Assembly (NCBI GenBank): GCA_016705245.1
Contig: JADIYM010000003.1
Location: 420,148 to 484,147, forward strand
DNA length: 64,000 nt
Source of the DNA: Blastocatellia bacterium
GTDB taxonomy: Bacteria; Acidobacteriota; Blastocatellia; UBA7656; JADIYM01
Direction: 5' to 3'
Part shown: positions 3,967 to 63,166 of the stretch, in pieces
Layout: each line of letters opens with the position of its first letter
Numbering within the stretch: position 1 is the first letter of the stretch
Position numbers and translations under genes: made by a program
Notes under the pieces: model-generated
What the model was told of the DNA's origin: nothing
The model's input: the letters and a program-made list of their open reading frames with translations, nothing else
Database searches by the model: none

Positions 3967-5317
3967 TCACCTGTGGACGAGTTCTTTCCCGACCTCAGAT
4001 CGCTCGACCTGCCTCTGTTCGCCGGTTGCCAGGGTCTTGAGCGTGACCTTGCCTGCGGCGCGTTCATCCGGGCCGACAATGGCGACAACCGGATAACCTC
4101 GACCGTCCGCGTATTTCATCTGCTTGCCAACCTTGTCGAGGTCCGGGAAGAGATCCACGCACAATCCGGCTGCCCGAAGCTCCCCCGCCAACGCAATTGA
4201 ATCCCCGATCGACGCCTCGTCCCAGACCGCGACCATCACGTCCGCGACGGTCTCGGCGTCACCGAACATCCCCCGTTCTTCCATCACCACGATGATCCGC
4301 TCGAGTCCAAGTGAAAACCCGCACGCCGGGATCTGCCGCCCGAGGAACATGCCCACGAGGTTGTCGTACCGGCCGCCGCCGCCGAGTGATCCAGCCAGGT
4401 CCGCAACCGCGACCTCGAAAATAGGTCCGGTGTAGTAGCTCAGCCCGCGCGCAAGAAATGGATCGATCCGGAAGTACCTTCCGGCTGCCGTGCCTGCCGC
4501 ATAGCCCACCAGCGTTCGCAGCTCATCGACGCCGGTTTTTCCCGCCTCGTTCTCGCCAACAGCTTCCGCAAGCCGGTCCAGCATCTCGTCCTGCGGCGAC
4601 TCCGCCAGCGCGAGCATTCCAACCAGGTGGTCGATTGCCACGCCCTCGACGCCGCGCTCGGTGAGCTCCTTACGGACGCCGTCAACGCCGATCTTGTCGA
4701 GTTTATCGATGGCGACGAGTGCCGTGCCCTCGAGCGCGGCCGGAATCCCGGCCGACTCGATCAGACCAAAAGTAGCTTCCGGTGATTCAACCGGATCGAG
4801 AAGTCCGTGAACCCGAGCTGCTCGAGCACGGTCGCCACCGCCGACGCCACCTCAACCTCGACCGTCAGCGACGACGAGCCCACGACGTCGACGTCGCACT
4901 GGTAAAACTCGCGAAATCGGCCCTTCTGCGGCCGATCCGCGCGCCACACAGGCTGTATCTGATAGCGCTTGAAGTACTTCGGAAGCTCGTTCTGGTATTC
5001 GGCAACGACACGCGCCAGCGGGACAGTCAGGTCGTACCGCAGCGCCATGTCCGCGACGTCGTTCTCGACCGCCGTTCCGGACGCGAGCGCGCGCTCGATT
5101 TTTCCCCGCGGTGCATGATCTTGAAGACGAGCTGATCGCCTTCCTCGCCATATTTGCCGAGCAGCACCTCGAGTCGCTCACACGCCGGCGTCTCGAGCGG
5201 CTCGAACCCGAACGACCGATATACCGACTTAACCGTGTCGATCACGCGCTCGCGCCTGAGCATCTGGCGCGGCAACAGGTCGCGCATTCCCTTCGCCGGT
5301 TTCGTGCTTGTGGCCAC
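3967..5317 (-). CDS. hisS: histidine--tRNA ligase, split into three ORFs by two apparent single-base deletions
   Basis: N-terminal part (5317..~5100) KGMRDLLP...[11 protein letters not shown]. Middle part [13 protein letters not shown]...[17 protein letters not shown] (motif 2). C-terminal part GGGRYDNL (motif 3) plus anticodon-binding domain. Frame changes at plus-strand T5 run 5099-5103 and A4 run 4768-4771; restoring one base in each rejoins the conserved sequence. Confidence 0.85.
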
Positions 5318-5393
5318 GGAAAACTCCCGGTCGCCGATTCACATGGATTGAAGGGAGCACGAACGCGCTCCCTTCGATCGGCGGCCGGGCATT

Positions 5394-5657
5394 CTACTCG
5401 ATATCGGCCTGGAAACAGGCACGCGACCCACAGCACGCGTGTGGATGTGCGAGGCTGTCGTCGGGACCGGCGCTCGCCATCGTCCCTAGACACCAGTAGA
5501 CCGCCGTCGTCGACACGCCCGTCTGCCACGGCGCCGGATCCGACCGGTCGCCGACGAGCGTCCCGAACGCGGTTTTCGTTCTCAGGAGCCGGCACACGAC
5601 CGGCGGCGTCGCCTCGGCTCGACCGTTTTCGGTCCGTTCCGTCGTCGGGCCCGTCAT
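5394..5657 (-). CDS. hypothetical Cys-containing small protein (87 aa), translationally coupled (ATGA overlap) to the molybdenum hydroxylase operon
   Basis: Start overlaps stop of upstream FAD-subunit gene; GC3-rich; residues C22, C56, C75, C76, C81; no recognisable family. Confidence 0.35.
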   Translation of the reverse strand: MTGPTTERTENGRAEATPPVVCRLLRTKTAFGTLVGDRSDPAPWQTGVSTTAVYWCLGTMASAGPDDSLAHPHACCGSRACFQADIE

Positions 5658-6631
5658 TTCGCGCCTCCAGCCTCGAGCAGGGTTCGCCGGATGACCGTCT
5701 CGAACAGCGTCGTCTTGTAACCGTTTCCCGAGAGAGGAGTTGCGCCCTCGAGCGCGGCCTTCGCCGCAGTTCGCGCGCTCGCGTCATCGAGCGGCTTCCC
5801 GACCAGCACCTTCTCCGCCGCCACGGCGCGATACGGAACCGGCGCCGCCGCGCCGAGCACGATTGACGCCCGCGACACGTTCACGCCGCTCCGTTCGACG
5901 ACCACCGCCACCTCGGCGATCGGCCAGTCGAACGACTCCTTCTCTCCTAGCTTCGTGTATGCGGATCGCGAGCCAGACACCAGCGGCGGAACGACGATAA
6001 GCGTGACAATCTCGTCGGCCCCGAGGCTGTTCTCGCGGTCGACGGCCACGGCCGGAAGCGTGAAGAACTCTTCGGCCCGAACGACTCGCTTGCCTCGAGG
6101 TCCCGTCAGCTCCAGCGAGCCACCGAGCGCCACCAATGCCGTCCCGAGCGCCGACGGATGCACGATCGCGCACACGTCGTTCCTGAAGATCGCGTGGTAC
6201 TGGTTTTCGCCCTTCTGGGCAAAACAGGTCTCACCGCCCTTTTTCAGGCAGTGAAAATCGCGGGACCTGAAATACCAGCACCGCGGTCGCTGCAGTAGGT
6301 TGCCCCCGGCCGTCGCCATGTTCCGGATCTGCGGCGTCGCCGCGTGCCCGGCCGCGTCGGCCAGTGCCGTAAACGACTGACGGACAACGGGATGCACGTC
6401 GAGCTGCGCCAGTGTCACGAGCGGGCCGATGCGCAGTCCCGTCGCGGTATCGCCTTCGATCCGGTCGAGCCCCTTGATGTTGCGGATGTTGACGAGCCGC
6501 TTCGGAGCGTCGAGCCCTTCCTTCAGACGATCGAGCACGTCGACGCCGCCCGCCTTCAGAAGGGATGTCGACCCCATCTGCCCGAGCGCCTCGTCGACCG
6601 TCGTTGCGTTCACCCATTCGAAGGCATTCAT
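5654..6631 (-). CDS. molybdopterin dehydrogenase FAD-binding subunit (CoxM/PaoB/XdhB-like medium subunit)
   Basis: FAD-binding subunit hallmarks: Gly-rich AGG segment (MATAGGNL) and YTKLGEKESFD segment; ATGA overlaps both neighbours. Confidence 0.85.
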   Translation of the reverse strand: MNAFEWVNATTVDEALGQMGSTSLLKAGGVDVLDRLKEGLDAPKRLVNIRNIKGLDRIEGDTATGLRIGPLVTLAQLDVHPVVRQSFTALADAAGHAATPQIRNMATAGGNLLQRPRCWYFRSRDFHCLKKGGETCFAQKGENQYHAIFRNDVCAIVHPSALGTALVALGGSLELTGPRGKRVVRAEEFFTLPAVAVDRENSLGADEIVTLIVVPPLVSGSRSAYTKLGEKESFDWPIAEVAVVVERSGVNVSRASIVLGAAAPVPYRAVAAEKVLVGKPLDDASARTAAKAALEGATPLSGNGYKTTLFETVIRRTLLEAGGAK

Positions 6632-9003
6632 GTTCGGGCTCCCTCCTTCCGGGCAGCGGCCAGCGCCGCAAGCACACGCGCCGGAGTCATCGGTATCTCG
6701 CGCATCCGGACGCCCGTGGCGTTGTAGACCGCATTCGCGATCGCCGCAGCCGTCGGAACGGTTGCCGGTTCGCCTATCCCGCCGGCGTCGGTGCTGCTTC
6801 GGCCCCGGTACTCCTCGATGATAATGGTCTCGATTACGGGCGTTTCCTTCGACCCGAGGATCTTGTACTGCTCCAGATTCGGATTGACCATCAGTCCCGT
6901 GTTGCGATCCAGCTGCCGGTTCTCGTACAGGGCGTAGGAAATGCCCTGCAGCACGCCGCCGTTGACCTGGCTCTCGACGCCGAGCGGATTGATCGGACGC
7001 CCGCAGTCGTGAACCGCGACGACCCGGTCGACGTGGATGACGCCGGTTTCCGTGTCGACGCTGACCTCCACGAACTGCACCCCGCCGTATTTGTCGAACA
7101 CGCGCTTACCGTCCGAGTAGTTTGGCGATCGGGTCGCGAGACTCGAGATCTGCTCTGTTTTCAGGTGTTTCGCCGCCTGTCGGAACGTCATCGACTTGCC
7201 GCCGGTCTTCGCCTCGACCTTTCCGGCGCGCATCAGCACGTCCGCTGCGGGCACTCCGAGATCGGTGGCAACGAGCGCGGCGAGTTGCATCTTCACCAAG
7301 TACGCCGCGTTTCGGGCCGCCGGAGTGATCGAGTTCGTCGTCACGCTGCCGCCCGACGCGGGCCCGTTCGGGAACGCAGTGTCGCCGATCCGGATCGTGA
7401 TGTCGGACGCCTTCAGCCCGAGTTCCTCGGCCACCACCTGCGCAAGGGCGGTGCGAATTCCGCCGCCGATGTCCTGCACTCCCGAGAGCAGCTCCACAGA
7501 ACCGTCGCGGGTGATTCGCACCTCACACGACGAGTCCATGTCAGTGAATCGATACCAGACGGACTGGGCGACGCCGAGACCGCGCTTGACGGGTCCGGCG
7601 TCGCTGCCGGGAGCCTTGCGCTTCGACCAGCCGACGCGCTCCGCTCCGAGTCGACGTTCGGTCCGCCGGGCCTCGTTCGAATCGATCTTGTCGCGCAGGG
7701 CCAGCGGATCGATGTTCAGTTTCTCGGCTACCTCGTCGATCACCTGCTCGAGCGCGAAACAGCCCTGTGGATGCCCCGGAGCCCGGAATGCGGCCGCGGG
7801 ACCGGCATTCACGAACACGTCCGCCTCCTCGGTCATCACCGCCGGGCAGTCGTACATGTTCTGCGCCGGGCCGCCGGCTCCCGCGCCCGTGCCAACGCCC
7901 GCGGTGCCGTAGTTGAGCAGGTGAATCGCCGTCAGTGAGCCGTCCTTTTTCGCGCCGACGCGCAGGATCTGGTGCGAGCTCGGGCGGTTACCGGCCGACA
8001 GGTGCTCGGTACGCCGGTCGAGCATGAGTTTCACCGGAGCGCCGGCTTTTTTCGAGAGGTGCGTCGCGAGGACGCCCTCGTTGCCCGCGCCGAACTTCGC
8101 TCCGAAGCCGCCGCCCATGAACTCGGTGATGACGCGGACCTGGGTCTTCGGCAGGCCGAAGACTTCGGCCAGCTCGTCGCGAACGCTCGATGTTCCCTGT
8201 GTCGAGGCGTAGACCGTCAGTCCATCCGCCTTCCAGTCGGCAACGACGCCATGCGTCTCGAGCGGACAGTGCGTCTGAACCTGCGTTCGGAACTCGCCTT
8301 CGACGACGACGTCGGCTTCCGTAAATCCCTTCCCGACGTCGCCGCGGGGCGGTCCGAACATCCCGCCCTTCACCGGGCCGCGGACGTTGCCGGTCTGCGG
8401 CACGCCGGCCGGCCCGCCGCCGCCTCCCGCAGTCCCCGCCATGTCGGCCGGGGCCGGAAAAACGAGTGGGGCGCCCGGCTTCCGGGCGTCGTCGGCATCG
8501 ACGACGAACGGCAGAACTTCGTAGTCGATCTTCACGAGCTTTGCGGCGTCCTCGGCGGCCTGCGGTGTCGTCGCGGCGACCGCGGCGATAGGCTGGCCCG
8601 CGTACCGGACGATCGGATAATTCGACGAGAGCTCCTTGGTCTTGTCGCTGACTACCGCGCTGCCCATCAGCCGTTCGTGCACGTAGACAGCACGAACGCC
8701 CGGCGCCTTTTCGGCTGCCGAAACGTCGATGGACCTGATGCGAGCGTGCGGAACCGTGGCCCCGACGACCCTCCCGTGAAGCATACCCGGCAGCTTGACG
8801 TCGGCCGTGTAACGGGCGGCGCCGGTTACCTTCAACCGGCCGTCGAGCCTGGGAGTCCGCTTTCCGATCACGGACAGCTCGGCGTTCGGTGGCAGCACAG
8901 GCGGCTCGCTCGCCGGAATCTCGTATTCGACCTCGGTCATCGAACCGCCGGCGATTCCGACCTTGAACTTCTCTTTTCGTGTGGGTTTCGTAGCGTCTTG
9001 CAT
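6628..9003 (-). CDS. xanthine dehydrogenase family molybdopterin-binding large subunit (CoxL/PaoC-like)
   Basis: 791 aa; N-terminal LKVTGAARYTADV..., GGGFG(A)KF, HLLNYGTAG and other motifs of Mo-hydroxylase large subunits. Confidence 0.85.
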   Translation of the reverse strand: MQDATKPTRKEKFKVGIAGGSMTEVEYEIPASEPPVLPPNAELSVIGKRTPRLDGRLKVTGAARYTADVKLPGMLHGRVVGATVPHARIRSIDVSAAEKAPGVRAVYVHERLMGSAVVSDKTKELSSNYPIVRYAGQPIAAVAATTPQAAEDAAKLVKIDYEVLPFVVDADDARKPGAPLVFPAPADMAGTAGGGGGPAGVPQTGNVRGPVKGGMFGPPRGDVGKGFTEADVVVEGEFRTQVQTHCPLETHGVVADWKADGLTVYASTQGTSSVRDELAEVFGLPKTQVRVITEFMGGGFGAKFGAGNEGVLATHLSKKAGAPVKLMLDRRTEHLSAGNRPSSHQILRVGAKKDGSLTAIHLLNYGTAGVGTGAGAGGPAQNMYDCPAVMTEEADVFVNAGPAAAFRAPGHPQGCFALEQVIDEVAEKLNIDPLALRDKIDSNEARRTERRLGAERVGWSKRKAPGSDAGPVKRGLGVAQSVWYRFTDMDSSCEVRITRDGSVELLSGVQDIGGGIRTALAQVVAEELGLKASDITIRIGDTAFPNGPASGGSVTTNSITPAARNAAYLVKMQLAALVATDLGVPAADVLMRAGKVEAKTGGKSMTFRQAAKHLKTEQISSLATRSPNYSDGKRVFDKYGGVQFVEVSVDTETGVIHVDRVVAVHDCGRPINPLGVESQVNGGVLQGISYALYENRQLDRNTGLMVNPNLEQYKILGSKETPVIETIIIEEYRGRSSTDAGGIGEPATVPTAAAIANAVYNATGVRMREIPMTPARVLAALAAARKEGART

Positions 9004-9021
9004 CGGTTCGTCTCCCCGCGC

Positions 9022-9666
9022 CTAGCGGCGCGACACCCTGGCCGCCGCGAGCGTCGCGTCAAAGACCTTCGGGTAGGTTCCGCAACGGCACAGGTTGCCG
9101 CTGACCGCGTCGCGCACGTCATCAAGCGACGGCGACGGGTTTCTGTCGAGCAGCGCCGCGCAACTCATCACCATTCCGGGAGTGCAATATCCACACTGCA
9201 TCGCGTCGTGCTCGATGAACGCTTCCTGGACCGGATGCAGTACGTCGCCCTTCGCGAGCCCTTCGATCGTCGTGACGGCACGGTCACCGACGTCGATTGC
9301 CAGCGTCATGCACGACACGACGAGAGTCTTGTCGAGCAAAACCGTGCACGCCGAGCACGAACCGCGATCGCAAACCACTTTGGTTCCGGTCAGTCCCAGG
9401 TCGTCGCGCAATGCCTCGGCCAGCGTAGTCCGCGGCTCGATGTCGAGCTTGCGGGCGGAGCCGTTCACGTTCAGCGTCACGGCGACACGTCCCGGGCCCA
9501 CCGCGGCAGGACCGGCGAGCGCCGTTGACGCTTCCGTCACCGCGTTCAGGCCAGTCTCGAGGATTGCGGCTCCAGCGGCTCCAAGTCCGGCGCCCTTGAG
9601 AAACCCGCGCCGCGAGACATTTCCACTCGTGACAGGCGAATCGGTCGGTACTGGATCTTCAGCCAT
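9022..9666 (-). CDS. (2Fe-2S)-binding small subunit of molybdenum hydroxylase with twin-arginine (Tat) signal peptide (PaoA-like)
   Basis: Real start at MAEDPV with SD GAAGGAGG upstream; Tat motif SRRGFLKGAGLGAAGAA; two [2Fe-2S] Cys clusters CDRGSCSACTV and CGYCTPG...CRCGTY. The ORF-table start 9825 lies inside an upstream palindrome. Confidence 0.85.
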   Translation of the reverse strand: MAEDPVPTDSPVTSGNVSRRGFLKGAGLGAAGAAILETGLNAVTEASTALAGPAAVGPGRVAVTLNVNGSARKLDIEPRTTLAEALRDDLGLTGTKVVCDRGSCSACTVLLDKTLVVSCMTLAIDVGDRAVTTIEGLAKGDVLHPVQEAFIEHDAMQCGYCTPGMVMSCAALLDRNPSPSLDDVRDAVSGNLCRCGTYPKVFDATLAAARVSRR

Positions 9667-9720
9667 CGTGCCTCCTTCGGGGATGTCGAGAGTACGGACG
9701 AGGGGCGAAATCGTTTCAGC

Positions 9721-9852
9721 CCGTGCAATGCGCGAAGCGCTTTGGAGTGCGGCGTGAATCGCCGCTTTGGATTGTAATTTCGGGTTCCCGGAGAGTGGAA
9801 TCCAAAGCGGCGATTCACGCCGCACTCCAAGGCGCTCCGCGCAGTGCCGACG
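9721..9852. promoter_or_regulatory. Large hairpin (37-bp perfect arms, 25-nt loop, imperfect outer extension) between the PP2C gene end and the Mo-hydroxylase operon start
   Basis: GCGCTTTGGAGTGCGGCGTGAATCGCCGCTTTGGATT ... AATCCAAAGCGGCGATTCACGCCGCACTCCAAGGCGC; sits ~70 nt upstream of the small-subunit start. Confidence 0.5.
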
Positions 9853-9855
9853 AGC

Positions 9856-11357
9856 CTAGTCGCCCTTCGCGAAGACGAAGAACCACACGGCGAACCCCGC
9901 CACCGTCAGCAACGCGAGCAGGATGAAGATCACTCCGAGCCCGATGAGGACCTTGCTTCCGGCCGACTTTCCGGCCTTTTTCGGAGGCTCCATGTCGAGC
10001 GCAGCTGTCGGCGGAATCGGCATCGTCGGGGCTGGCGCGGGCACCGCAACTGGAGGTGGCGAAGCCGGCGCTGCCGCCTGCGGCGCCGGCTGCGGCGGCA
10101 AGGGAGGCGCCGCAACTTGCGGGGCCTGCACTGGTGCTGGCGGCGGCGCGACGGGCATCGACGAAAGCGGGACGGTCGCCTGGTGAGAAGCAGGATCCCC
10201 CGAGGCAAGCGGCGCCGTCGGCATGCCAGCGGCGATATCGTGCATGGCCGGCGGGACGACCACATCGGGCGCGTTTGACGGCGCCGACGGTGCGGGCTGC
10301 TGCAGCCGCGGGATCGCGACGTGGGTCACGGGAATGTCCGAATGCGCCGGTCCCGTCCCGGGTTGGGTTGCGATGAGCTGCATTCCGAGGTTGTCGAGAA
10401 CCCCGTTGACGCTCGGCGGTCCCTGCGCGGCATTCGCCGCCGTGTCCTGGTAATAGTCGAGCTGCTGTCCACCGATGCGCAGCAGGTCGTTCGACGTCAG
10501 CGCGTGCATGCTGCCCGTGATCGAGAACTGTTCGGCCGAGCTCTGGAGTGAAGACCCGTCAAACTGCGCTATGAGCGCCGTGATGTTGTCTTCTCCGCCC
10601 CGGGCGTTCGCAAGCTCGATGAGCCGCCGGCACGCGGCCGCCAGATCCGGCACGTTCTGGACGATCGCGTCGCGCATTTCGTCCGCCGATACCTTGTTCG
10701 ACAATCCGTCCGAGCAAAGCAGCATCGCATCGCCGGCGCACAGGTCTACCGAGGTGACCGCGACGACGACGTCAGGCCGCGTGCCGAGCGCCTGCAGGAT
10801 AACGTTGTTCGGAACCTGATTCGCCTGATCCGGCTGAATCGCCTTTGCGTCGACGAGGAGCTGGACGAGCGACTGGTCCTTGGTGAGTTGCTTGATTCGA
10901 CCGGCGCGCACGAGGTAGGCGCGCGAGTCGCCAACCTGCCCGACGTAGGCCTTGCTGCCGTGGCACAACACCGCCGTCAGCGTGGCGCCCATTCCGGCGA
11001 GGTGCGGATTGTCCTGAGCGTATTGCCAGACCGTGCGATTCGTCCGTTCGACCGCGATCTGCAATCGCTGCGAGACGTCGAGCGGCGTCGAGCCAGGCTT
11101 GAGCATCTCGTCGCGCACGCCGTTGACCGCCAGGTCGCTGGCGATCTCGCCGGCGACCGCGCCGCCCATGCCGTCCGACACGACCATCAGGCTTCCCATC
11201 GAGCCAAGACGGTGGTGGCTCACTTCCGGTGTCAGCCCGGTGTTGCCGGTCGTCAGATCCGCCACGAGAAACAGTCTTCGTTTCCTCGCCGGATCATGCC
11301 GACATCGGTCCGCGCAGAGACGCGGACCTGGACGTCGCCGTTTTGCGACGCGCTCAC
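9856..11357 (-). CDS. PP2C-family Ser/Thr protein phosphatase with Pro-rich linker and C-terminal TM anchor; apparent frameshift near 11270
   Basis: Conserved N-terminus RTDVGMIRRGNEDCF lies in a different frame (11268-11357, GTG start at 11355-11357) from the body (DGMGGAVAGEIAS...). The frame change falls at a plus-strand AAA run at 11269-11271. C-terminal PPPAP repeats plus VLIGLGVIFILLALLTVAGFAVWFFVF. Confidence 0.8.
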
Positions 11358-11396
11358 GCGAGGGGCTCCATGCTGCCGATGGCCACGTTCGTCGTC

Positions 11397-12704
11397 CTAC
11401 TCATCGGCCTCGAATCGGAACAGTTGTTTTCCAATGAGCACGACATCCCCACCATGAAGCTCGACTTCCTGATGGATCTTCACGAAAGTTCCGTTTCGAG
11501 AGTTGTTGTCGATGAGAAAGAACCTCCCGTTTCGTTGGAGGATCCGGGCATGACGGCTCGACATGTAACCGTCGTGCGGAAACTTGATATCACCGTCGAC
11601 GCGACCGATCCCAGTTTCGGTCGGCCTGAGCTGGAAGGTCTCGCCGACGTCTCCGCCCTCCATGATGAGGAGCAGACGGCCCGACTTTGGCGGTGACGCC
11701 ACGGGTGTCGACGACATGACGATCGTGTGCTGGTCGGGCGGCGGCGCCGCACCGGTCGGAGGCGCGGCCTGACCGATGCCGGCCGTAGGCGTCGCCGTCG
11801 GTGTCGGCGTGGTGACGTAGGAAGGCTCGGGAGCCACCACCGGGACGCCTGCCGTCGGAACATCGTCAGTTGCAAAGCCGGTCGTTCCGCCGGCGCCCGG
11901 TGGAGCCTGATCCGGGTCGACGATCGTGTCCAGGTAGGCGGACGGTTCCGGCTGCGGCGGATTGAGGACAGTCGGCAGATATTCGGCAGCTGGCGGCGGC
12001 GCCGGTGGCGCCGGTGCTGCTGGCGGAGGAGGTGTCACCACAGTCGCGGCGCCCCACGCGGGCTGGGGTGGCGGCGGTGGAACCATCTGGCTGAAATCGG
12101 GACTTGGAGTCACGACCGTCTCCGCTCCCCACGTGGGAGCAGGCGGTGGCGGGGGAGGTGCTGCAGGCTGGGGCGGCGCGAACTGGCTGAGGTCAGGAGC
12201 CGGCGTGATAACCGTCGGCGCACCCCACGCCGGCGCTGCCGGCGGAGGAGGAGCCGGAGGAGCCTGTGGCTGTCCGAAACTGGGGTTGGGACTGATCACG
12301 GTCGGGGCGCCCCAAGGCGCCTGTTCCGGAACATGCGGTGGCGGGGCAGTCGGCGGAAGCGGCGGAGGCGGCGTCACGACGGTCGGCGCGCTCCATTGCT
12401 GCGCCGGCGCAGCCGGGGCCTGTACCGCGAGTCGCGAGCCGCACTGCTGGCAGAACGCCCAGTCCGCGTCATTCGTCGCGCCACACGCCGGACAGATGGA
12501 CTTGCCCGCGGGCACGCGTCCACCCGGAGCCTCCATCGCCGGATTTCCCGGAGACGGAATCAGCACCGTCATCGGCATGTCCGCCGCAGCAGGTGCAGCA
12601 GGCCGACCGGGAGCCGCCGCTGCCGCATCGAGCGGCGTCGCGCACATGCGGCAGACGGGCGCGTCGTCCTTGTTTTCCGCTCCACATCGAGGACAGGTGA
12701 TCAT
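11397..12704 (-). CDS. FHA domain protein with N-terminal double zinc ribbon and five Pro-rich W(G/S)APTV(V/I)TP repeats
   Basis: CPRCGAEN...CRMC and CPACGATN...CQQCGSRL; repeats WSAPTVVTPPPP / WGAPTVISPNPS / WGAPTVITPAPD / WGAETVVTPSPD / WGAATVVTPPPP; C-terminal FHA (GRVDGDIKFPHDGYMSSRHARI...NNSRNGTFV). Confidence 0.85.
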   Translation of the reverse strand: MITCPRCGAENKDDAPVCRMCATPLDAAAAAPGRPAAPAAADMPMTVLIPSPGNPAMEAPGGRVPAGKSICPACGATNDADWAFCQQCGSRLAVQAPAAPAQQWSAPTVVTPPPPLPPTAPPPHVPEQAPWGAPTVISPNPSFGQPQAPPAPPPPAAPAWGAPTVITPAPDLSQFAPPQPAAPPPPPPAPTWGAETVVTPSPDFSQMVPPPPPQPAWGAATVVTPPPPAAPAPPAPPPAAEYLPTVLNPPQPEPSAYLDTIVDPDQAPPGAGGTTGFATDDVPTAGVPVVAPEPSYVTTPTPTATPTAGIGQAAPPTGAAPPPDQHTIVMSSTPVASPPKSGRLLLIMEGGDVGETFQLRPTETGIGRVDGDIKFPHDGYMSSRHARILQRNGRFFLIDNNSRNGTFVKIHQEVELHGGDVVLIGKQLFRFEADE

Positions 12705-12897
12705 CGCAGGCTACTCCTCAGATTGGCCCTCCCGACGGTCGACAGCAACGTGCGGACAATCGGCACCACGAGTGTTTCGGTCGGTCGAATCTTACAGGAT
12801 GAGTACGAGCTGAAAGGCTCTTGCGCGAGGATACAACGAAGGCCGAGAAAAACGCAAAAGTGACTTCCGTGCCACGCTCGAGTCGTCGTCGAATGCG

Positions 12898-13624
12898 TCA
12901 TCGGTCCGACTCCGCGACAGCCGCCGCGAGACGCGTCGTGACCGGTCCCGGTGCGGCAAAGCGGTGGATATCGAGTTCCGCGACGGGCTGAACGCCTCGC
13001 GTCGAGTTCGTCAGAAAGACCTCGTGGGCTTCGTGAAGGACGTGAAGCGTGGCGGCGCCTTCGACGGCTCGTATTCGCAATCTCGTTGCGGCCTCGAGGA
13101 CGAGCGCCCTCGTGATCCCCGCAAGGCAGCCGGTTCCGAGCGACGGCGTCCAGAGCTCGCCATCGCGAACCCAGAAGAGGTTCGCCGAAGACGTCTCGAC
13201 CACCTCGCCGCGTTCGTTGAGCACGATGGCATCGTCGAAATCCCGTCGCCGCGCCTCGTCGACTCTCGTCGAGCGCGGCTGCAAGAATCCAGAGATCGGA
13301 GGAACGCGCGCTCTCGTCTCGCCAGGGGCCCGCGGACCCGCGGACCGCTGTAGCCCGCGCACGACCCGTCGAGATCCGGCCAAGCGCCACGAGCTCGGCG
13401 AGTCCAGCTTCGAAGTCGGCGAGCGAATGCTCGAGCGGAACCCCGAGCCGGGCAGCGTGCGACGTGAGCCTAGCCCAGTGACGCGCCGAGTGCCGGACGC
13501 GGCCATCGGAAATACCGAGAGTCGTGAAGACGCCCCATCCGTAGAGAAGGCCCGCCGAGAGCGGCGACACGCGCGCGTCGCCAATCGGAAGGACTGCGCC
13601 GTTTAGCCAGACGAAGGGAACCAC
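12898..13624 (-). CDS. pabC: aminodeoxychorismate lyase / class IV aminotransferase family (PabC-like), disrupted: N-terminal and C-terminal halves in different frames with ~25-30 residues apparently missing
   Basis: N-terminus FVWLNGAVLPIGDARVSPLSAGLLYGWGVFTTLGISDGRV...RGSAGPWR matches PabC/IlvE fold. C-terminus DFDDAIVLNERGEVVETSSANLFWVRDGELWTP...TRGVQPV in another frame. Junction near 13255-13300; no frame supplies the expected Schiff-base Lys segment. Confidence 0.6.
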
Positions 13625-13678
13625 GTCGTGATCATGCGCCGGAGAGCCTTGGCTGCATAGCTCCCATTGCAGCCCTGC

Positions 13679-13772: not shown

Positions 13773-13831
13773 GCATGAAAACTGGGGGTGGAATGGCTAC
13801 TTGATACCTCTCGCCATACGCTCGCACCTTT

Positions 13832-51586: not shown

Positions 51587-51613
51587 GCCGGCTCCCTCCT
51601 CTTTCGGTGTGCG

Positions 51614-54348: not shown

Positions 54349-54706
54349 GGATTGTCCTCAAAAAGGCCATGGCCCGACGCCTGCAGCGGCCCCGTCCACT
54401 TGATCGGCAACCACTCACAACGATTACGGCCCGATACCACGATTCTTGCTGGAGGCACAGTAACCTCCCTCTCACTTGTCGACAGAACGGTCAATAACGT
54501 TAGAGCGGGTTGGTCCCGTACCTCAGGAGATGAGACTGGCCTGCCGAATTGTCAGTCGAAATCGGAGCTGTGAAACGCTGTAGTGGAGCGGATGGCAGAG
54601 TATACAGAAAGAGTTGGGGTGTCAATAGGTTGCGCGGATTGCACGGCATCCGGCACGGATGCGAATCGCGCCGCCCTCCAGAGGATCGCATCACCCCTGT
54701 TCCCAG

Positions 54707-55597
54707 TCACTTCGGGGCAGGCCTGGGACCGATCGCCGCCTCTGCCGCAAAGGCCTTGATGGCGTCTCGCCAGGGCCGCATCGGGGCCAGTCCGAGGGCC
54801 TCCGACCGCACGCATCGCATGGCCGAGAAGGCTGGACGCGGAGCCGGAAGCCCCAATTCGGCAACGGTCACCGGAATCAGCTCGACGTCCGATCGTCCGG
54901 CGTCGTCGAGGGCGGCGCGGGCGACGTCAAACCACGTGGCCGGCTCGCCGCTGTTGCAGCAATGAAAGGTCCCCGACGTGTCGAGATTGATGAGCTCGAG
55001 AATCCGAGCGGCCAGGTCCGGGGCGTATGTCGGCAGGCTTCGCATGTCGACGATTCCCTTCAACCGGTTTGTCGCGGAAGCGTACTCGAAGATCCGGCTC
55101 GCGAAGTTCTTGCCTCCGACGCCGAAGAGCCACGAAGTGCGAACAATGAGGGCACCGGGCTGCGCGGCGAGGACCGTAAGTTCGCCTTCGAGTTTGCTGC
55201 GGCCGTAGACGCTGATCGGTTTCGGTGTGTCGTCGGTCGTGTAGGGCTCGCGCTTCGTTCCATCGAAGACGAAGTCGGTACTGACGTGGACGAGCCGGGT
55301 GGCCGATCTCGTGCACGCTTCGGCGAGCAATCCGGGCCCTGCGGCGTTCGCGAGCATCGCGGCCTCCGGATCGCGTTCGCAACCGTCGACATCCGTCATC
55401 GCGGCAGCATTGACGACCGCCGTCGGTCGGTGTCGGCCGAGCGCGCGGGCAATCGACTCGGCGTCGGTCACGTCCAGCTCGGAGCGGCCAACCGCGACGA
55501 TCGGGCGATCTGGCGTCGAGAGCGAAGCGAGCGTGCGTCCGAGCAGGCCGCCGCCACCGGTTACGAGGATCGGGTGGTTCGACATTGGGTGAGACAT
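54707..55597 (-). CDS. rmlD: dTDP-4-dehydrorhamnose reductase
   Basis: ILVTGGGGLLG Rossmann motif, YGRSK catalytic context; start at MSHPMSN preferred over the 5'-extended ORF. Confidence 0.8.
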   Translation of the reverse strand: MSHPMSNHPILVTGGGGLLGRTLASLSTPDRPIVAVGRSELDVTDAESIARALGRHRPTAVVNAAAMTDVDGCERDPEAAMLANAAGPGLLAEACTRSATRLVHVSTDFVFDGTKREPYTTDDTPKPISVYGRSKLEGELTVLAAQPGALIVRTSWLFGVGGKNFASRIFEYASATNRLKGIVDMRSLPTYAPDLAARILELINLDTSGTFHCCNSGEPATWFDVARAALDDAGRSDVELIPVTVAELGLPAPRPAFSAMRCVRSEALGLAPMRPWRDAIKAFAAEAAIGPRPAPK

Positions 55598-55851
55598 ATC
55601 ACGACCGGCTCGGCCAAAAAAAACCTGAACCCCTCCGAGGCCCGTGTCGTAGTGTGCGCTGTTCACGTTCTTTCTGAATTTGCACTGGAGCCGAAATCCC
55701 GCTTGGGCGGGGTGCGGGGGAACCAACTTTTGGGGTGAATTCCGCGGAGGGCCGCGGATAGAGCATCTTCCAGCTCGAACCCGTCAGCTAACCTCGTAGG
55801 CTGGTGGAAGAGCCGTCTGTCAATGGGCGACTCCTGGACTTGCTGTGTCCC

Positions 55852-55905
55852 GGGGCCGCCGCATGAGAGTCTCCGGCTCTCGCGCGGCGGCCCTTTTGAT
55901 TTTAC
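55852..55905 (+). terminator. Rho-independent-terminator-like hairpin (9-bp GC stem plus TTTTGATTTT) in the 400-bp intergenic region upstream of 56003
   Basis: GGCCGCCGC ATGAGAGTCTCCGGCTCTCGC GCGGCGGCC CTTTTGATTTT; no plus-strand CDS precedes it. Confidence 0.4.
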
Positions 55906-56488: not shown

Positions 56489-58414
56489 ATGAACGTCGTT
56501 GTTCAGTCGACCCTGTTCGGTTTCGCGATCCTCGTGTTCTCAGTCGTGGTCGGATGGATCGTGCCGTCGCTCTACCTGATTCGCGAATCCGAAGTCGGTC
56601 TCGTCGAAAAAAAGGTCCTCGGCGGATCCCTTCCCGCGGGCCGCGTCGTCGCGGCCGACGGTGAGCAGGGACTGCAGGCCCGCACCCTCGCGCCCGGACT
56701 GCACTTCATGCCGAAACCGTTCTTCAAGGTGTGGCGGATTCCGCTCACGCGTGTGCCCCAGGGATTCATCGCCCTCATCACGGCGATCGACGGCGCACCG
56801 CTGCACATCGGCCAGCTGCTGGCGCGAACCGTCGATGGGCACCATAACTTCCAGGACGGCGTGGCCTTCCTGAGCCGCGGCGGTCAGAAAGGCGCCCAGG
56901 TCGGAATCCTGACGCCTGGCCAGTACCGGATAAACACGCGGCTCTTCGAGGTCGACATCGCCGCGGCGATCGAGGTCCCGGAGGGACGCATCGCCACGGT
57001 CACGGCGATCGACGGTGCGCCGCTTCCGATGGGTCAGCTTCTCGGTCGGGCGACGGCCGGCCACAGCAGTTTTCAGGATGCGGAAGCGTTTCTCGCCGGC
57101 GGAGGCCAGAAGGGACCTCAGGTAGAGATCCTGACGCCCGGCATGTATTACATCAACCCGCGGATGTTTGGCGTGAAGCTGGGCAATGCCGTCAAGGTCC
57201 GTACTGGCGAGATCGGCATCGTTGAAGCATTCGACGGCACCGAACTGCGCACCGAGCAGATTCTCGGCGACTCGCTCCGCGGGCACGACGACTTTCAGTC
57301 CGCCCAGGCATTTCTCGACGCGGGCGGCCAGCGCGGTCCGCAACTCGACATCCTCAAGCCGGGGATGTACATCAATCCCCTGCTTTTCGACGTGACGGTC
57401 CAGGACGCCACGGTGATCAACATCGGCGAGGTCGGCGTCATCCGCTCGAACGTCGGGATCCTGCCTCCGGTCGGTGAGGACGGCCGCACTCCGGATCTCG
57501 TCGACGAGGGGTACCGCGGCGTGCTCAAGACCGTGCTCGAGCCGAACACGTATTACCTGAATCCGATCGCGTACGTCGTGTTCCCTATCTCGACGCTCAA
57601 CATCACGATCGACTGGAGCACCGAGAATCGCGACACGCCGCGTGACTCGGTCACGGTGAAGAGCCGCGACGGATTCTCGTTCCCGGTCGACGTCAAGGTG
57701 GTCATTCGGGTCCTCAAGGAGCACGCGCCCCTCGTGGTCTCGAAGATCGGCTCGATCCAGAACGCCGTCGACCGCGTGATTCACCCGGCGATCGGCGCAA
57801 CGTTCCGCAACAATGCCGAGCGTTGTGACGCGCTCGACTTCCTGAACAACCGCTCGGTGCAGCAGGCGAACGCGAAGGACGTCACGACGGTCATGCTTCG
57901 CGAATACGGCATCGAGACCGTCGACGTGCTCGTCGGCAACGTCGGGATTCCCGAAGAACTGCTCAAGACGCAGACCGACCGCTTCCTCGCAAAGGAGCGC
58001 GAGAAGACCTATCGCGAGCAGAAGACGGCGGAGGACACGCGCCGCGAGCTCGAGAGCGCGACGGCACTCGCCAACCAGCAGAAGAACATCGTTGCGGCGC
58101 ACGCTTCGGTCGAGATCTCGAAGTCGTCCGCGGCTGCGATGGTCGCGGCCGCCGAAGGCGAGGCGCGGCAGATCGAGCTTCGCGCCGACGCGAACAGCGC
58201 GGCGTACCAGAAACTCATTGCCGAGATCGGGCGCGAGGGACTCATCGGCATCGAGATGCTCAAGCTCGTGCGCGATGGCCAGATCAAGATCACGCCCGAG
58301 GTGTATGTCTCAGGCGACAGTGCGGGGCCGATGTCAGCCCTGGCGGCAACGATGCTAGGCGGTCGACGCCAGGAGACCTCGATCCGAACGAGCGATGCGC
58401 CACAAGCCGCGTAA
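56489..58414 (+). CDS. SPFH/band-7 family flotillin-like membrane protein with three N-terminal ~60-aa tandem repeats
   Basis: N-terminal TM; repeats ...AIDGAPL..GQLL(A/G)R...FQD..AFL..GGQ(K/R)GPQ..IL(T/K)PG.Y.IN.; SPFH core; C-terminal Ala/Glu-rich coiled-coil AAAMVAAAEGEARQIELRADANSAAYQ. Confidence 0.7.
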   Translation: MNVVVQSTLFGFAILVFSVVVGWIVPSLYLIRESEVGLVEKKVLGGSLPAGRVVAADGEQGLQARTLAPGLHFMPKPFFKVWRIPLTRVPQGFIALITAIDGAPLHIGQLLARTVDGHHNFQDGVAFLSRGGQKGAQVGILTPGQYRINTRLFEVDIAAAIEVPEGRIATVTAIDGAPLPMGQLLGRATAGHSSFQDAEAFLAGGGQKGPQVEILTPGMYYINPRMFGVKLGNAVKVRTGEIGIVEAFDGTELRTEQILGDSLRGHDDFQSAQAFLDAGGQRGPQLDILKPGMYINPLLFDVTVQDATVINIGEVGVIRSNVGILPPVGEDGRTPDLVDEGYRGVLKTVLEPNTYYLNPIAYVVFPISTLNITIDWSTENRDTPRDSVTVKSRDGFSFPVDVKVVIRVLKEHAPLVVSKIGSIQNAVDRVIHPAIGATFRNNAERCDALDFLNNRSVQQANAKDVTTVMLREYGIETVDVLVGNVGIPEELLKTQTDRFLAKEREKTYREQKTAEDTRRELESATALANQQKNIVAAHASVEISKSSAAAMVAAAEGEARQIELRADANSAAYQKLIAEIGREGLIGIEMLKLVRDGQIKITPEVYVSGDSAGPMSALAATMLGGRRQETSIRTSDAPQAA

Positions 58415-60055: not shown

Positions 60056-60222
60056 GCCGTGCTCCAGGAGGGGTGCAGCCGAGTGTACTGCACGTGGCAG
60101 GCAACGTCTACGCCGCGGCCCTCGAGCGGATGGCAGCACCGGGGCTTCGGTGCGCTCAAAGAAAAAGAGCGCCCCGGCGAACCGGAGCGCTCTCGAATGA
60201 GCGAGAAACGTGGCGCTCGAAA

Positions 60223-63166
60223 CTAGTTGTCCTGCACGTAGGTACGGCGGAACCCGGTCAGATTGATGTATTGGAAGAACGGCGTCCCAGGCGGCAGGCG
60301 TCGCGGATCGAGGAAGTTCTCGTCGAACACCCAGTTTCTGGTGGGCGGTTGGTACACCTGGTCGCAGCACTTGAACGGGCCGTTGTTGTTGATGCTGTTG
60401 AAGAGATTGATGAGCGAGCCGCAGTAGTTCACGGTGCGACCGCTCCAGTTCTCGCGGAACCGCTTGAAGTTGTGGACGCCACCCGCGAGGTGCGGGTCGC
60501 CGCCCCCCTGATTCGGTCCGTCGGTGGCGTTGAAGCTGATCGTGTCGCCCATCAGCAGGGCGGTGCGAACGGTGGTATCGGTGGTCGGGAACCGCCCGTC
60601 GAGCGTCGTCGTGCCGAAGTCGAACGCCCAGCGGAAGCTCTTGCCGTCGTTCCACTGGTTGCTGAGGATCGACACGGCATCGGCCACGACCGAGGCCGGG
60701 ACCATGTCGCCGCCCGCATTGCGGTAGTCGCTGAACGGCGTCGGCGTGCCGATGGCTACGACACCCGTGGCGTTGTAGTTGCCCTGGATGTAGACGCCCT
60801 GTTCGCTCGCGTACGAGAAGCCCCTGAACTGGTTGCCCGGGAGCAGCGACCCGTTGATGAGACGCGAAGCGCGCCGATTCCAGCGCGTATCGGTGACCGC
60901 CGCGATCGGCGCGTCGAGCCCGGTTGCATACGTCGCCGATTCGCCGTTGCCGAGACCCGCGTTGTCGTAGGAGTGGTTCAGGCCGCCGCTGCGATTGACG
61001 TCTTCGCCGATGGCAAAGCCCGTCGTGTCGGTCGCGTTCGCGACGTACACGTTTTCGCCGTCGTATTCGCCATCATTGTCGAGGTCGTTGCGCCGGTCCG
61101 ACATGTAGACGATCCAGCCGATCCCGCCATTGTCGGGAAGCGACGCGCCGGTGAGACCGTTCGGCATCGTTCCGTCGAAGTCCCCGTTGATGAGCCGCCT
61201 GAAGTTCGCCACGTCGAAATCGATCAAGCCCATGACGCCGTTGACCGGCACCCGCTGGCTGTTCGCATTCGGCATGTAGAGGCTCGTCCAGCTCGTGCCG
61301 CCAGTGTCGGGCAGCGACTCGTTGTAGAGCCCTTCCCGCGTGTCGAACATCATGATCGGGAACGGGACGAGGTGGACGTTCCGGATCGACGACGTCGCCG
61401 CGCCCGGATCGGGCACGGTGAGCCGGATCGGCAAACTCGTTCCGTAGGTGCCGACTCCGTTAAGCGGGCATTCGAAGATGGACTCGCGCGAGTCGAGATA
61501 GGCGTTGACCTCACAAACGACGTTTGCTCCGCGGTTTGCATCTCCGAGCGATGGAACGAAGGTATTGCTCGGGATGAACGAATACACCGACCGGTTCAGG
61601 GCCAGGCGCGCCACGGAAGTCGACTGATTCCCCGCGATACCGAGGAAGTTGTCGGGAACCTGCGGGGCATGGTTCGGGGTGTTGTTCTCGGTCGCCGACA
61701 CCAGGTAGTTGGCGTTGTTCACCTTGAGGGGCGGGCCGGCGATTGCGAAACGCTGGATCTTGAGAATCGCGTCCTGGTCGCCGAAACGCTGGGGTCCCGT
61801 CGACCCACCGCCAGCGGCCAGACCGAGCGGCACCGGCGTCCGATCGGTCATGCCAAGGCTGAGGATGTCGACGGTGATGTCGGTGGCCTCCGGCACCAGC
61901 GTTGCCGGGTTCGTGGCAACCGCCTCGACCTTGATCCACACCGGGCGATCCGCGATCGTCGTCAGACGTTCGCCGTTGATCTTGTGTGCGCGGGGCTGAC
62001 CGCCCCCCCGCGCCGTCGGCCAATAACCCTTCGCCCCGTTGCCGACAGTGTTCGCCGCATTCGGCTGGATAACGGCATTCAGCTGTACGCCGCCCGCTCC
62101 GCCAGGGAGTTGGGCCTGACTGTTGCTCAGCGTCACCCGTATGCAGGGCTTGTTGTAGTAGCGCGAATCGCGAAGAATCGCGTCATCGGCCGGCAGGCCC
62201 CGACGAATGATCGCAACCGGCGGCTGTCCGCCGAGCTGCAGCGGAAGCTGCAGTCGCGGCGTGCGGGCCACGAGGTTCCCGCGGGTGTGCGGAGAACGTC
62301 GGCCAGCCGGCGTTGACCGTGCCGTTCGGCTCGTCCGGATCCGAGTTGGTGATGTCGGGACCGCCGACGACGCTCCCGGACGAGACGATTCGATAGGTTC
62401 CGGTACCGTCGTTCACTCGGACTCGCTGGCCCCAGTTCGTGTAGGGCGACCCGTTGCGGGCCACGTCGACGACAACCTCACCGGCCGCGGTTACACGATC
62501 GCGGAACCGCGTGCTCGTATTGCCGGCCATCAGGTAGATGTCACCGTTTGTGTGCACCCGGCCGCCGAAGTTGAACGGCGGGCCGGGGTGATGCTCCTGC
62601 GGATCGTCGTAGAAGATGCCGAACTGGAAGATCGGAATAGTGTAATTGTTGAGCGTTCGGGTAAGCCGGACCTCGGCATTCGTCGGTCCGAGTGCCGTCG
62701 CGTCCATGCGCCATCCTTCACGAAGCGCAACAAGGCCGGCGAACGGCGAGCTCACGTCGACGGTCGTCTGCTCGGGCGGCTGACCGGGGTTCTCGCGCTG
62801 AAGATCCTGGTCGATGAAGAAATTCGGGAAGCCCGCAGGAACGTCGGCCTCGATGTTCGCGATGTCGACGGCCGTCGGCGTGATCCGGACGTCGAACACG
62901 TCGCTGAAGTTGCGCGACATGTGGTCGAGACTGGCCTGCGCCGCGAAATACGCGTCCGTGTTGGCCTGGTCGTTCGACATCATCAACGTCTCGTTCGTTA
63001 CGCGCGAGATCGTCGCCGCGACGAAGATCGCAAGCAGCGCCATGATCATCACGGCGATGATGATCGCAGTGCCGCGCTGGGACGTTCGGCCGCTTCGCGA
63101 ACGGGACTTTCGGGTGGCTTTCGTGTTCGTCTTCATTTTACTTTCTCCACTTCGAGGGCGGCGCAT
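60223..63166 (-). CDS. large type IV pilus-associated protein with PilX_N-like N-terminus (~980 aa), apparent frameshift near 62280
   Basis: N-terminus QRGTAIIIAVMIMALLAIFVAATISRVTN (prepilin-like hydrophobic segment). N-terminal and C-terminal ORFs overlap at 62183-62271 in different frames; junction at a CCC/GGG run at 62278-62286. Confidence 0.65.

What the first reader, a model, noticed from the sequence alone, without database searches (positions are those of the whole stretch)
3967..63166. At least 12 genes carry single-base frameshifts, mostly at homopolymer runs: indel-prone assembly or real pseudogenes
Each of the following is split between reading frames: hisS (twice), the PP2C phosphatase, pabC, the Ser/Thr kinase, the TPR-CHAT gene, the oppF-like ATPase, the NDP-sugar dehydrogenase (twice), rfaE, the pentapeptide gene, the Pro-rich gene and the PilX_N gene. 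Conserved protein sequence continues uninterrupted once one base is added to or removed from a short homopolymer: T5 at 5099-5103, A4 at 4768-4771, AAA at 11269-11271, TTT at 21581-21583, GGGG near 39916, CCC near 39889, C5 at 52686-52690, A4 at 54306-54309. Several of these genes are essential (hisS) or carry no other damage. Sequencing or consensus error (long-read or pyrosequencing style) is therefore more parsimonious than a dozen independent pseudogenes. The alternative, a genome accumulating slippage mutations, would be biologically notable.
Basis: seen in the sequence. Interest (0 to 1): 0.5.

Follow-up and report, generated by a model that had tools for sequence, protein, structure and literature searches.

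The report
Assembly-error frameshifts in a Nanopore MAG
The broken genes are really in this sequence, but they are almost certainly leftover consensus errors from a low-coverage Nanopore metagenome assembly, not real pseudogenes, so the finding is ordinary apart from a data-quality warning.

Summary
The window comes from a GenBank MAG ("Blastocatellia bacterium", locus tags IPF53_*, 484-kb contig). I infer it is JADIYM / AalE_18-Q3-R2-46_BATAC.155 of Singleton et al. 2021. That MAG was assembled with CANU from Nanopore R9.4.1 reads at 9.9x and polished with 6.4x Illumina.

I aligned the window to 19 other assemblies of the same species (about 99.3% identical).

There are 15 frame-breaking events:
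- 11 are single-base; 7 of these sit in runs of 3 or more bases and 3 in runs of 2.
- 3 are 2-bp deletions (oppF, rfaE, PilX_N gene).
- 1 is a 104-bp deletion (pabC).

A twelfth gene, coaD, carries a private nonsense change.

No other assembly carries any of these alleles. Seventeen short-read assemblies and a 4.06-Mb contig have no private coding indels. The sister MAG from the same pipeline has its own breaks at different sites.

Private substitutions in the broken genes are 11 synonymous to 3 non-synonymous in the restored frame, like the intact genes (60:18). The indels are clustered and biased towards deletion.

Low interest.

The parts
3967..5287 (-). hisS (440 aa in relatives), split into three frames by two 1-base deletions: A5->A4 at 4768-4771 and T6->T5 at 5099-5103.
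   Evidence: The intact allele is present in 6 and 4 other assemblies. A more distant metagenome contig also has a 6-nt stretch at the second site.
9856..11357 (-). PP2C phosphatase (500 aa); 1 base lost at 11268 (GG->G), codon 30.
   Evidence: The intact allele is in 10 assemblies.
12898..13624 (-). pabC (Aminotran_4, 276 aa in relatives); 104 bp missing at the 13262/13263 junction, next to short CTCGTCGA repeats, with an adjacent substitution.
   Evidence: The reference junction is in 10 assemblies and the window junction in none.
17369..19537 (-). purL (740 aa in relatives); in-frame loss of 54 nt at 19163-19176. Not a frameshift, but private to the window.
   Evidence: The other allele is in 6 assemblies.
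21348..23181 (+). Ser/Thr kinase (610 aa); 1 base gained, TT->TTT at 21579-21581, codon 78.
23251..26579 (+). TPR-CHAT gene (1109 aa); 1 base lost, CCC->CC at 23684-23685, codon 145.
   Evidence: The N-terminal piece is in GenBank as MBK6313927.1.
38177..39267 (+). oppF-like ABC ATPase (364 aa); three deletions within 42 nt: 38952 (C3->C2), 38974 (C3->C2) and 38993 (-2). Net -4.
39337..40700 (-). UDP-glucose/GDP-mannose dehydrogenase (453 aa); two 1-base insertions 59 nt apart: G2->G3 at 39890-39892 and C3->C4 at 39949-39952.
   Evidence: The intact allele is in 6 assemblies.
40701..41709 (-). rfaE-like PfkB kinase (336 aa); 2-bp deletion at 41184 with a substitution 2 nt away.
   Evidence: The intact allele is in 6 assemblies.
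44952..45461 (+). coaD (169 aa); private nonsense change TCG->TAG at 45082, codon 44.
   Evidence: All 10 other loci covering the site (about 9 independent assemblies) have TCG.
51614..52880 (-). Pentapeptide-repeat gene (421 aa); compound change at 52676-52677. TAC becomes TAAG on the coding strand, which gives a frameshift and an immediate stop.
52931..54348 (-). Pro-rich gene (472 aa when started at MSFLSRLFGRKKK); T5->T4 at 54315-54318, codon 12.
   Evidence: The N-terminal extension is conserved in a species with 83% nucleotide identity.
60223..63136 (-). 971-aa gene with a PilX N-terminal domain; 2-bp deletion at 62286 with an adjacent substitution.
   Evidence: The two halves are in GenBank as MBK6313961.1 and MBK6313960.1.
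56489..58414 (+). Band_7/SPFH gene; private in-frame loss of one TAC from TACTAC at 57368. This removes a Tyr from a GMYYINP motif that is conserved across species.
3748..55904 (.). Private non-coding indels of the same kind: 3748 (C3->C4), 19545 (C3->C2), 19607 (A2->A3), 20621 (-3), 27869 (-22), 27898, 28324, 28348, 28361, 44874 (+5), 55904 (+1).

Best explanation
The frameshifts are residual consensus errors of a low-coverage Nanopore R9.4.1 metagenome assembly, not mutations of the organism.

Shown: the window is part of the 484,147-bp contig of GenBank MAG 'Blastocatellia bacterium' (locus tags IPF53_*).

Inferred: this MAG is JADIYM000000000 = AalE_18-Q3-R2-46_BATAC.155 of Singleton et al. 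2021. That study assembled with CANU and polished with Racon, two rounds of Medaka (r941_flip213) and one Racon round with Illumina reads. Coverage for this MAG was only 9.9x Nanopore and 6.4x Illumina.

Inferred mechanism: at such depth the consensus miscounts short homopolymers and, in locally thin or strain-mixed stretches, drops a few to about 100 bases. The shallow Illumina round did not repair all of these. The result is about one indel per 2.3 kb. Gene callers turn these into split ORFs, and GenBank now holds the pieces as separate, sometimes misnamed, proteins.
For: 1. Source. Exact protein look-ups give MBK63139xx, IPF53_* and a 484,147-bp contig. The sister MAG JADIZP carries IPF82_*. 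IPF53 to IPF82 and JADIYM to JADIZP are both 29 steps apart, and both MAGs sit in dRep cluster 468_1. Their coverage is 6.4x Illumina with 9.9x Nanopore, and 6.4x with 9.4x.

2. Private alleles. All 15 frame-breaking alleles are private to the window. The intact allele is found in 2-10 independent assemblies at each site.

3. Comparison by technology.
- 17 short-read assemblies (summed over assemblies, about 250 kb aligned to the window): 0 private coding indels, 4 non-coding.
- The 4.06-Mb contig of GCA_963852865.1: 2 private indels, both non-coding, and all 50 genes intact.
- The sister R9.4.1 MAG: 55 private indel events that break at least 5 other genes at different sites (xanthine dehydrogenase Mo subunit, ECF sigma, kinase, TPR-CHAT, PatA_N-TPR).
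- Frame-breaking indels against private SNPs: 15/131 in the window, 0/199 in the others (Fisher p=1.6e-6).

4. Selection. Window-private substitutions are 60 synonymous to 18 non-synonymous in intact genes, and 11:3 in the broken genes read in the restored frame. After repair the genes are 99-100% identical in protein sequence to the relatives, and the only internal stop among them lies at the compound indel site in the pentapeptide gene (52676); the separate nonsense codon in coaD (45082) is a substitution, not an indel product.

5. Essential genes are hit: hisS twice and coaD by a nonsense codon.

6. Error-like pattern.
- Strong clustering: 7 neighbouring pairs within 100 nt, p about 5e-5.
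- 21 deletions against 8 insertions.
- Several indels have an adjacent substitution.
- 15 of 17 coding indels are not multiples of 3.
- Transitions to transversions are about 1:1, as for ordinary SNPs, so there is no mismatch-repair-deficient signature.

7. Literature. R9.4.1 consensus indels in homopolymers are a recognised cause of fragmented gene calls, and bins below 40x need Illumina polishing (PMC9262707).
Against: - No reads were inspected, and no short-read assembly of exactly this strain is available. The closest assemblies are about 99.3-99.7% identical, and the window has 2.4 private SNPs per kb, mostly synonymous and so mostly real. Strain-specific indels therefore cannot be excluded site by site.
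- Four frame-breaking events (three of 2 bp, one of 104 bp) and the 54-nt purL loss are not classic homopolymer errors.
- The link between the window and JADIYM rests on accession and locus-tag arithmetic plus cluster membership, not on a direct record look-up. The genome-contig scan found nothing.
- Natural slippage also favours homopolymers, so that enrichment alone does not discriminate.
Confidence: 0.93

Rival explanations
1. Mixed case. The single-base and 2-bp events are errors, but some of the larger or in-frame private differences are real structural variants of this strain: the pabC 104-bp deletion next to short direct repeats, the purL 54-nt in-frame deletion, the Band_7 TAC loss, and copy-number changes in intergenic repeats.
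For: - The window is a distinct strain with many real private SNPs (77% synonymous).
- Real indel polymorphism exists in this species: the 47288-47413 block is shared by several assemblies, and the 6-nt and 8-nt repeat copy numbers vary.
- The pabC deletion lies between CTCGTCGA-like repeats.
Against: - The pabC deletion destroys the frame of a folate-pathway gene.
- The purL and Band_7 losses remove residues that relatives conserve; for Band_7 this includes the 83%-identical species.
- These losses occur at the same density, and are just as private, as the obvious errors.
Confidence: 0.2
2. Real recent gene decay. This strain, for example a mutator or a lineage under relaxed selection, truly carries a dozen fresh pseudogenes produced by slippage mutations.
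For: - The events are enriched in short homopolymers.
- They are private to a strain that no other assembly represents.
Against: - hisS (hit twice) and coaD are indispensable in known bacteria (established knowledge). A second copy could not be looked for.
- The synonymous to non-synonymous ratio in the broken genes equals that of intact genes.
- There is no transition bias.
- Three hits within 42 nt and two within 59 nt of single genes are not expected from independent mutations.
- The sister MAG made by the same method shows the same phenomenon at other sites, while no short-read assembly shows it at all.
Confidence: 0.04
3. Functional recoding: programmed ribosomal frameshifting, transcriptional slippage or phase variation at the homopolymers.
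For: Only that several sites lie in short runs of A or T (4768, 5099, 54315).
Against: - The sites share no motif and the runs are only 1-6 nt long.
- Both +1 and -1 shifts, 2-bp deletions and a 104-bp deletion occur.
- Some genes have two or three shifts.
- Every other assembly of the species, and of an 83%-identical species, encodes the proteins in a single frame.
Confidence: 0.01

Closest known systems
Residual indel errors in Oxford Nanopore R9.4.1 consensus assemblies, which cause fragmented gene calls (the problem measured by the IDEEL test; Sereika et al. 2022, PMC9262707)
   Same: - R9.4.1 data, Medaka and Racon polishing, and coverage far below 40x.
- Indels enriched in homopolymers and biased towards deletion.
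- Genes split into adjacent ORFs.
- The sister MAG from the same pipeline is affected at different sites.
   Different: About a quarter of the frame-breaking events are 2-bp or about 100-bp losses, not homopolymer miscounts. One gene-breaking change is a substitution (the coaD nonsense codon). These fit low-depth or strain-mixed consensus failure better than the textbook homopolymer error.
Pseudogene-rich genomes undergoing reductive evolution (e.g. Mycobacterium leprae, Sodalis; from my own knowledge)
   Same: Many genes are interrupted by frameshifts within a short stretch of genome.
   Different: - Here essential genes are hit.
- Substitutions still show purifying selection in the restored frames.
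- There are no IS insertions, and the only internal stops are one substitution-type nonsense codon (coaD 45082) and the stop created at the compound indel at 52676.
- Close relatives at 99.3% identity are fully intact.
Phase-variable contingency loci (slipped-strand mispairing at long homopolymers; from my own knowledge)
   Same: A change in homopolymer length switches the reading frame.
   Different: The runs here are 2-6 nt, not 8 or more. The genes are housekeeping genes. No other assembly shows length polymorphism at these sites.

Membership tests
Long-read (Nanopore R9.4.1) consensus or assembly error | The sequence was produced by an error-prone long-read assembly at low coverage. | tested here: met
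   CANU, Racon, two rounds of Medaka r941_flip213 and Illumina Racon; npcov 9.9x, ilmcov 6.4x. The link from the window to JADIYM is inferred from the accession and locus-tag offset and from cluster 468_1.
Long-read (Nanopore R9.4.1) consensus or assembly error | The indel alleles are absent from independent, accurate assemblies of the same species. | tested here: met
   0 of 19 other assemblies carry any window allele, and the intact allele is found in 2-10 assemblies per site.
Long-read (Nanopore R9.4.1) consensus or assembly error | Other assemblies made by the same method show comparable private indels at unrelated sites, while short-read assemblies do not. | tested here: met
   the sister MAG has 55 private events. 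The 17 short-read assemblies have 0 coding and 4 non-coding events over about 250 kb summed across assemblies.
Long-read (Nanopore R9.4.1) consensus or assembly error | Homopolymer enrichment and deletion bias. | tested here: met
   9 of 18 one-base events lie in runs of 3 or more (p=2e-5), and there are 21 deletions against 8 insertions. Four of the 15 frame-breaking events are not homopolymer-type.
Long-read (Nanopore R9.4.1) consensus or assembly error | Raw accurate reads disagree with the consensus at these sites. | not testable with these tools
   The reads of PRJNA629478 could not be mapped here.
True pseudogenes (gene decay) | Relaxed selection: substitutions are no longer biased towards synonymous in the original frame. 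| tested here: not met
   11 synonymous to 3 non-synonymous private SNPs in the broken genes, against 60:18 in intact genes (Fisher p=1.0).
True pseudogenes (gene decay) | The affected genes are dispensable or have intact paralogues. | tested here: inconclusive
   hisS and coaD are normally essential (established knowledge). The rest of the MAG could not be searched for second copies; the genome-contig scan returned nothing.
Programmed frameshift or phase variation | The shift site is conserved in relatives, or is a long hypermutable tract that is polymorphic in length. | tested here: not met
   all relatives encode a single frame, the runs are 6 nt or shorter, and no length polymorphism is seen among the other assemblies.

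The most novel reading that the evidence does not exclude
The dominant Aalborg East population of this uncultured Blastocatellia species (midas_s_502) really carries some of these lesions. One version is a very recent burst of slippage and deletion mutations that inactivated hisS, coaD, pabC and cell-envelope genes, which would imply dependence on community members for these functions. A weaker version is that only the 104-bp pabC and 54-nt purL deletions are real strain variants.
Probability: 0.04. Interest if true: 0.45.

Novelty: not a real feature. Interest (0 to 1): 0.07.

Why it matters
Biologically it does not matter: the organism most likely has intact genes.

It matters as a data-quality warning:
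- About 20% of the genes in this 64-kb stretch of a MAG labelled 'high-quality', and used as a species representative, are broken by consensus errors.
- GenBank nr now holds the pieces as separate proteins, some with misleading names. The middle third of hisS is called 'ATP phosphoribosyltransferase regulatory subunit', and the N-terminal piece of the TPR-CHAT gene is called 'PPC domain-containing protein'.
- Metabolic reconstructions or pseudogene counts based on this MAG would be wrong for hisS, coaD, pabC, rfaE, the sugar dehydrogenase and others.

Tried and rejected
- A home-made codon-usage Viterbi and ORF scoring to call frame switches was too noisy at 65% GC. I replaced it with alignment to intact relatives.
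- The scan of genome contigs for the hisS site, allowing either run length, found nothing. The source record title could therefore not be confirmed directly, and a second hisS copy could not be sought.
- The scan of metagenome contigs for the oppF double site found nothing. The hisS pattern found one more distant contig, with a 6-nt TTTTCT stretch.
- I hoped that contigs encoding 641-aa Band_7 variants would be the window's own strain assembled from short reads. They turned out to be a different species at about 83% identity. They were still useful for validating the start of the Pro-rich gene and the conserved YY motif.
- A test for private SNPs lying next to private indels was only marginal: 3 of 28 within 6 nt, p about 0.03. 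The alignments do show adjacent substitutions at 13263, 41184, 52676 and 62286.
- A mismatch-repair mutator signature was looked for and not found; transitions to transversions are about 1:1.
Full report
**Observation**

Reading the minus strand of 3900-5400 shows hisS in three frames. The N-terminal part ends after '...KIMHRGEK'. The middle part runs from '...[14 protein letters not shown]' to 'NHRKLLLV*'. The C-terminal part resumes in a third frame. The window has 65% G+C, so ORF lists and my own codon-usage segmentation were too noisy to map frame switches. I therefore looked for intact relatives.

**Source**

Exact look-up of ten intact window proteins identified them as GenBank MBK63139xx, 'MAG: Blastocatellia bacterium', locus tags IPF53_*, on a 484,147-bp contig. 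The same clusters contain proteins of a sister MAG (MBK64247xx, IPF82_*, 1.16-Mb contig), a 4,064,729-bp contig, and many short contigs from ENA, JGI and Logan.

The sister MAG is JADIZP000000000 = AalW_18-Q3-R10-53_BAT3C.204 in Supplementary Data 3 of Singleton et al. 2021 (PMC8012365). In what is held of that table, the only other member of its dRep cluster 468_1 is JADIYM000000000 = AalE_18-Q3-R2-46_BATAC.155. IPF53 to IPF82 and JADIYM to JADIZP are both 29 steps apart, so I infer that the window is JADIYM.

Both MAGs have very low coverage:
- JADIYM: 6.4x Illumina, 9.9x Nanopore
- JADIZP: 6.4x Illumina, 9.4x Nanopore

The study assembled with CANU 1.8 and polished with Racon, two rounds of Medaka (r941_flip213) and one Racon round using Illumina reads.

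**Comparison with other assemblies**

Using intact neighbouring proteins as handles, I fetched 53 loci from 19 other assemblies of the same species. They are:
- the 4.06-Mb contig of GCA_963852865.1 ('refA');
- the sister MAG ('refB');
- 17 assemblies with short-read assembler names (MEGAHIT k127_/k141_, SPAdes NODE_, Logan).

All are 98-99.7% identical to the window. I stitched refA over the whole window and aligned it with MAFFT. This gave 357 SNPs and 35 indel events. I then projected the 50 refA genes, all of them intact ORFs, onto the window.

**What is broken**

| Gene | Position | Change |
|---|---|---|
| hisS | 4768 | A5->A4 |
| hisS | 5099 | T6->T5 |
| PP2C phosphatase | 11268 | GG->G |
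| pabC | 13263 | 104 bp missing |
| Ser/Thr kinase | 21579 | TT->TTT |
| TPR-CHAT | 23684 | CCC->CC |
| oppF | 38952 | CCC->CC |
| oppF | 38974 | CCC->CC |
| oppF | 38993 | -2 |
| UDP-sugar dehydrogenase | 39890 | GG->GGG |
| UDP-sugar dehydrogenase | 39949 | CCC->CCCC |
| rfaE | 41184 | -2 |
| pentapeptide gene | 52676 | +1 with a substitution, creating TAA |
| 971-aa PilX_N gene | 62286 | -2 |

The event at 54315 (T5->T4) lies upstream of the start that gene callers give the 347-aa 'Pro-rich' gene. However, the ORF is open for 128 more codons. Its N-terminus, MSFLSRLFGRKKKEEPEPPRPAQPVQRETPKPAPPAP, is 100% conserved in a species that is only about 83% identical in DNA. The real gene therefore starts at 54348, and it is frameshifted at codon 12.

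I also found:
- a private nonsense change in coaD (TCG->TAG at 45082);
- a private in-frame 54-nt loss in purL;
- loss of one TAC from TACTAC in the Band_7 gene, which removes a Tyr from a GMYYINP motif conserved across species.

The C5 at 52686 is not the site, 'GGGG near 39916' is really at 39949, and the A4 at 54306 is really at 54315.

**Error or real?**

1. None of the window alleles occurs in any other assembly. The intact allele occurs in 2-10 assemblies per site. A further metagenome contig also has a 6-nt stretch at the hisS T-run.

2. Private indels differ sharply by technology.

| Assembly | Private indels |
|---|---|
| 17 short-read assemblies (about 250 kb summed across assemblies) | 0 coding, 4 non-coding |
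| refA | 2, both non-coding |
| refB (same R9.4.1 pipeline, same depth) | 55 events |
| window | about 28-30 |

The refB events break the xanthine dehydrogenase Mo subunit, ECF sigma factor, kinase, TPR-CHAT and PatA_N-TPR genes, all at sites different from the window's. Relative to private SNPs, frame-breaking indels are 15/131 in the window and 0/199 in the accurate assemblies (p=1.6e-6).

3. The window is a real, distinct strain. It has 2.4 private SNPs per kb, and 77% of those in genes are synonymous. Private SNPs in the broken genes are 11 synonymous to 3 non-synonymous when read in the restored frame, the same as the 60:18 in intact genes. After repair the genes are 99-100% identical in protein sequence to refA, and the only internal stop among them lies at the compound indel site in the pentapeptide gene; the coaD nonsense codon is a separate substitution. 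The frames were therefore under selection for essentially the whole history of this lineage.

4. hisS (hit twice) and coaD are essential functions.

5. The indels have an error-like pattern.
   - They are strongly clustered: three in 42 nt of oppF, two in 59 nt of the dehydrogenase, and four in 37 nt of an intergenic repeat. There are 7 neighbouring pairs within 100 nt (p about 5e-5).
   - They are biased towards deletion, 21 to 8.
   - Several are compound with an adjacent substitution.
   - They show no avoidance of non-3n lengths in coding sequence: 15 of 17.

6. Private SNPs have transitions to transversions of about 1:1, like the other SNPs, so there is no mismatch-repair mutator signature.

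7. The literature from the same laboratory states that R9.4.1 consensus indels in homopolymers cause fragmented gene calls, and that bins below about 40x need Illumina polishing (PMC9262707). Here only about 6x Illumina was available.

**Caveats**

- No reads were examined, and no accurate assembly of exactly this strain exists in the collections.
- The 2-bp, 54-nt and 104-bp losses are not classic homopolymer errors. Some could be true strain variants. The pabC loss lies beside short CTCGTCGA repeats.
- The identification with JADIYM is inferential. A genome-contig scan for the hisS site returned nothing.

**Consequences**

GenBank holds the pieces as independent proteins:
- The middle third of hisS is MBK6313911.1, 'ATP phosphoribosyltransferase regulatory subunit'.
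- The N-terminal piece of the TPR-CHAT gene is MBK6313927.1, 'PPC domain-containing protein'.
- The PilX_N gene is split into MBK6313961.1 and MBK6313960.1.

Two of the fragment proteins (MBK6313911.1 and MBK6313927.1) have no other full-length cluster member among 15 billion proteins.

**Verdict**

This is an artefact, not a biological feature, and it is of low interest except as an annotation warning.

Noticed in passing
window 27607-28518: Twelve tandem copies of a 23-nt unit (TCCGCGACCGCGGACCGGTCAAC) lie at 27607-27885. About 4.4 copies of the same unit, in inverted orientation, lie at 28424-28518. Between them, 44-nt inverted-repeat arms (27898-27941 and 28364-28407, 91% complementary) flank a core of about 420 nt. 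The region is intergenic and the copy number differs between strains. It looks like a small non-autonomous element with arrays of binding sites at both ends.
   Followed up: partly
window 45082 (coaD, 44952-45461, +): A private nonsense substitution, TCG->TAG at codon 44 of phosphopantetheine adenylyltransferase. All 10 other loci covering the site have TCG.
   Followed up: yes
window 19163-19176 (purL, 17369-19537, -): A private in-frame loss of 54 nt (18 codons), about 125 codons into FGAM synthase. Six other assemblies have the full length.
   Followed up: partly
window 51095-54348 (-): A conserved three-gene cluster: bactofilin, a 421-aa pentapeptide-repeat protein, and a Pro-rich protein. 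The true N-terminus of the Pro-rich protein (MSFLSRLFGRKKKEEP...) is missed by gene callers in every assembly, but it is 100% conserved in an 83%-identical species.
   Followed up: partly
window 838-924, about 17272, 44830-44885: Short tandem arrays of the 8-nt unit CCTTTGCG or its complement GCGCAAAG lie in several intergenic regions. Copy number varies between strains.
   Followed up: no
window 47288-47426: A block upstream of, and running into the start of, the VWA gene. It is replaced or rearranged between strains. The window version is shared with the sister MAG and two short-read assemblies, so this is a real polymorphism and not an error.
   Followed up: partly
GenBank proteins MBK6313911.1, MBK6313927.1, MBK6313960.1, MBK6313961.1 (window 4764-5048, 23251-23685, 60223-63136): Fragments created by the frameshifts are deposited as separate proteins with misleading names. 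The middle piece of hisS is named as the HisZ regulatory subunit, and the N-terminal piece of TPR-CHAT is named 'PPC domain-containing protein'.
   Followed up: yes
L001/L009/L030/L036/L046 (sister MAG JADIZP, GCA_016704725.1): The sister R9.4.1 MAG has its own private indels in the same region. They break the xanthine dehydrogenase Mo subunit, ECF sigma factor, Ser/Thr kinase, TPR-CHAT and PatA_N-TPR genes.
   Followed up: yes
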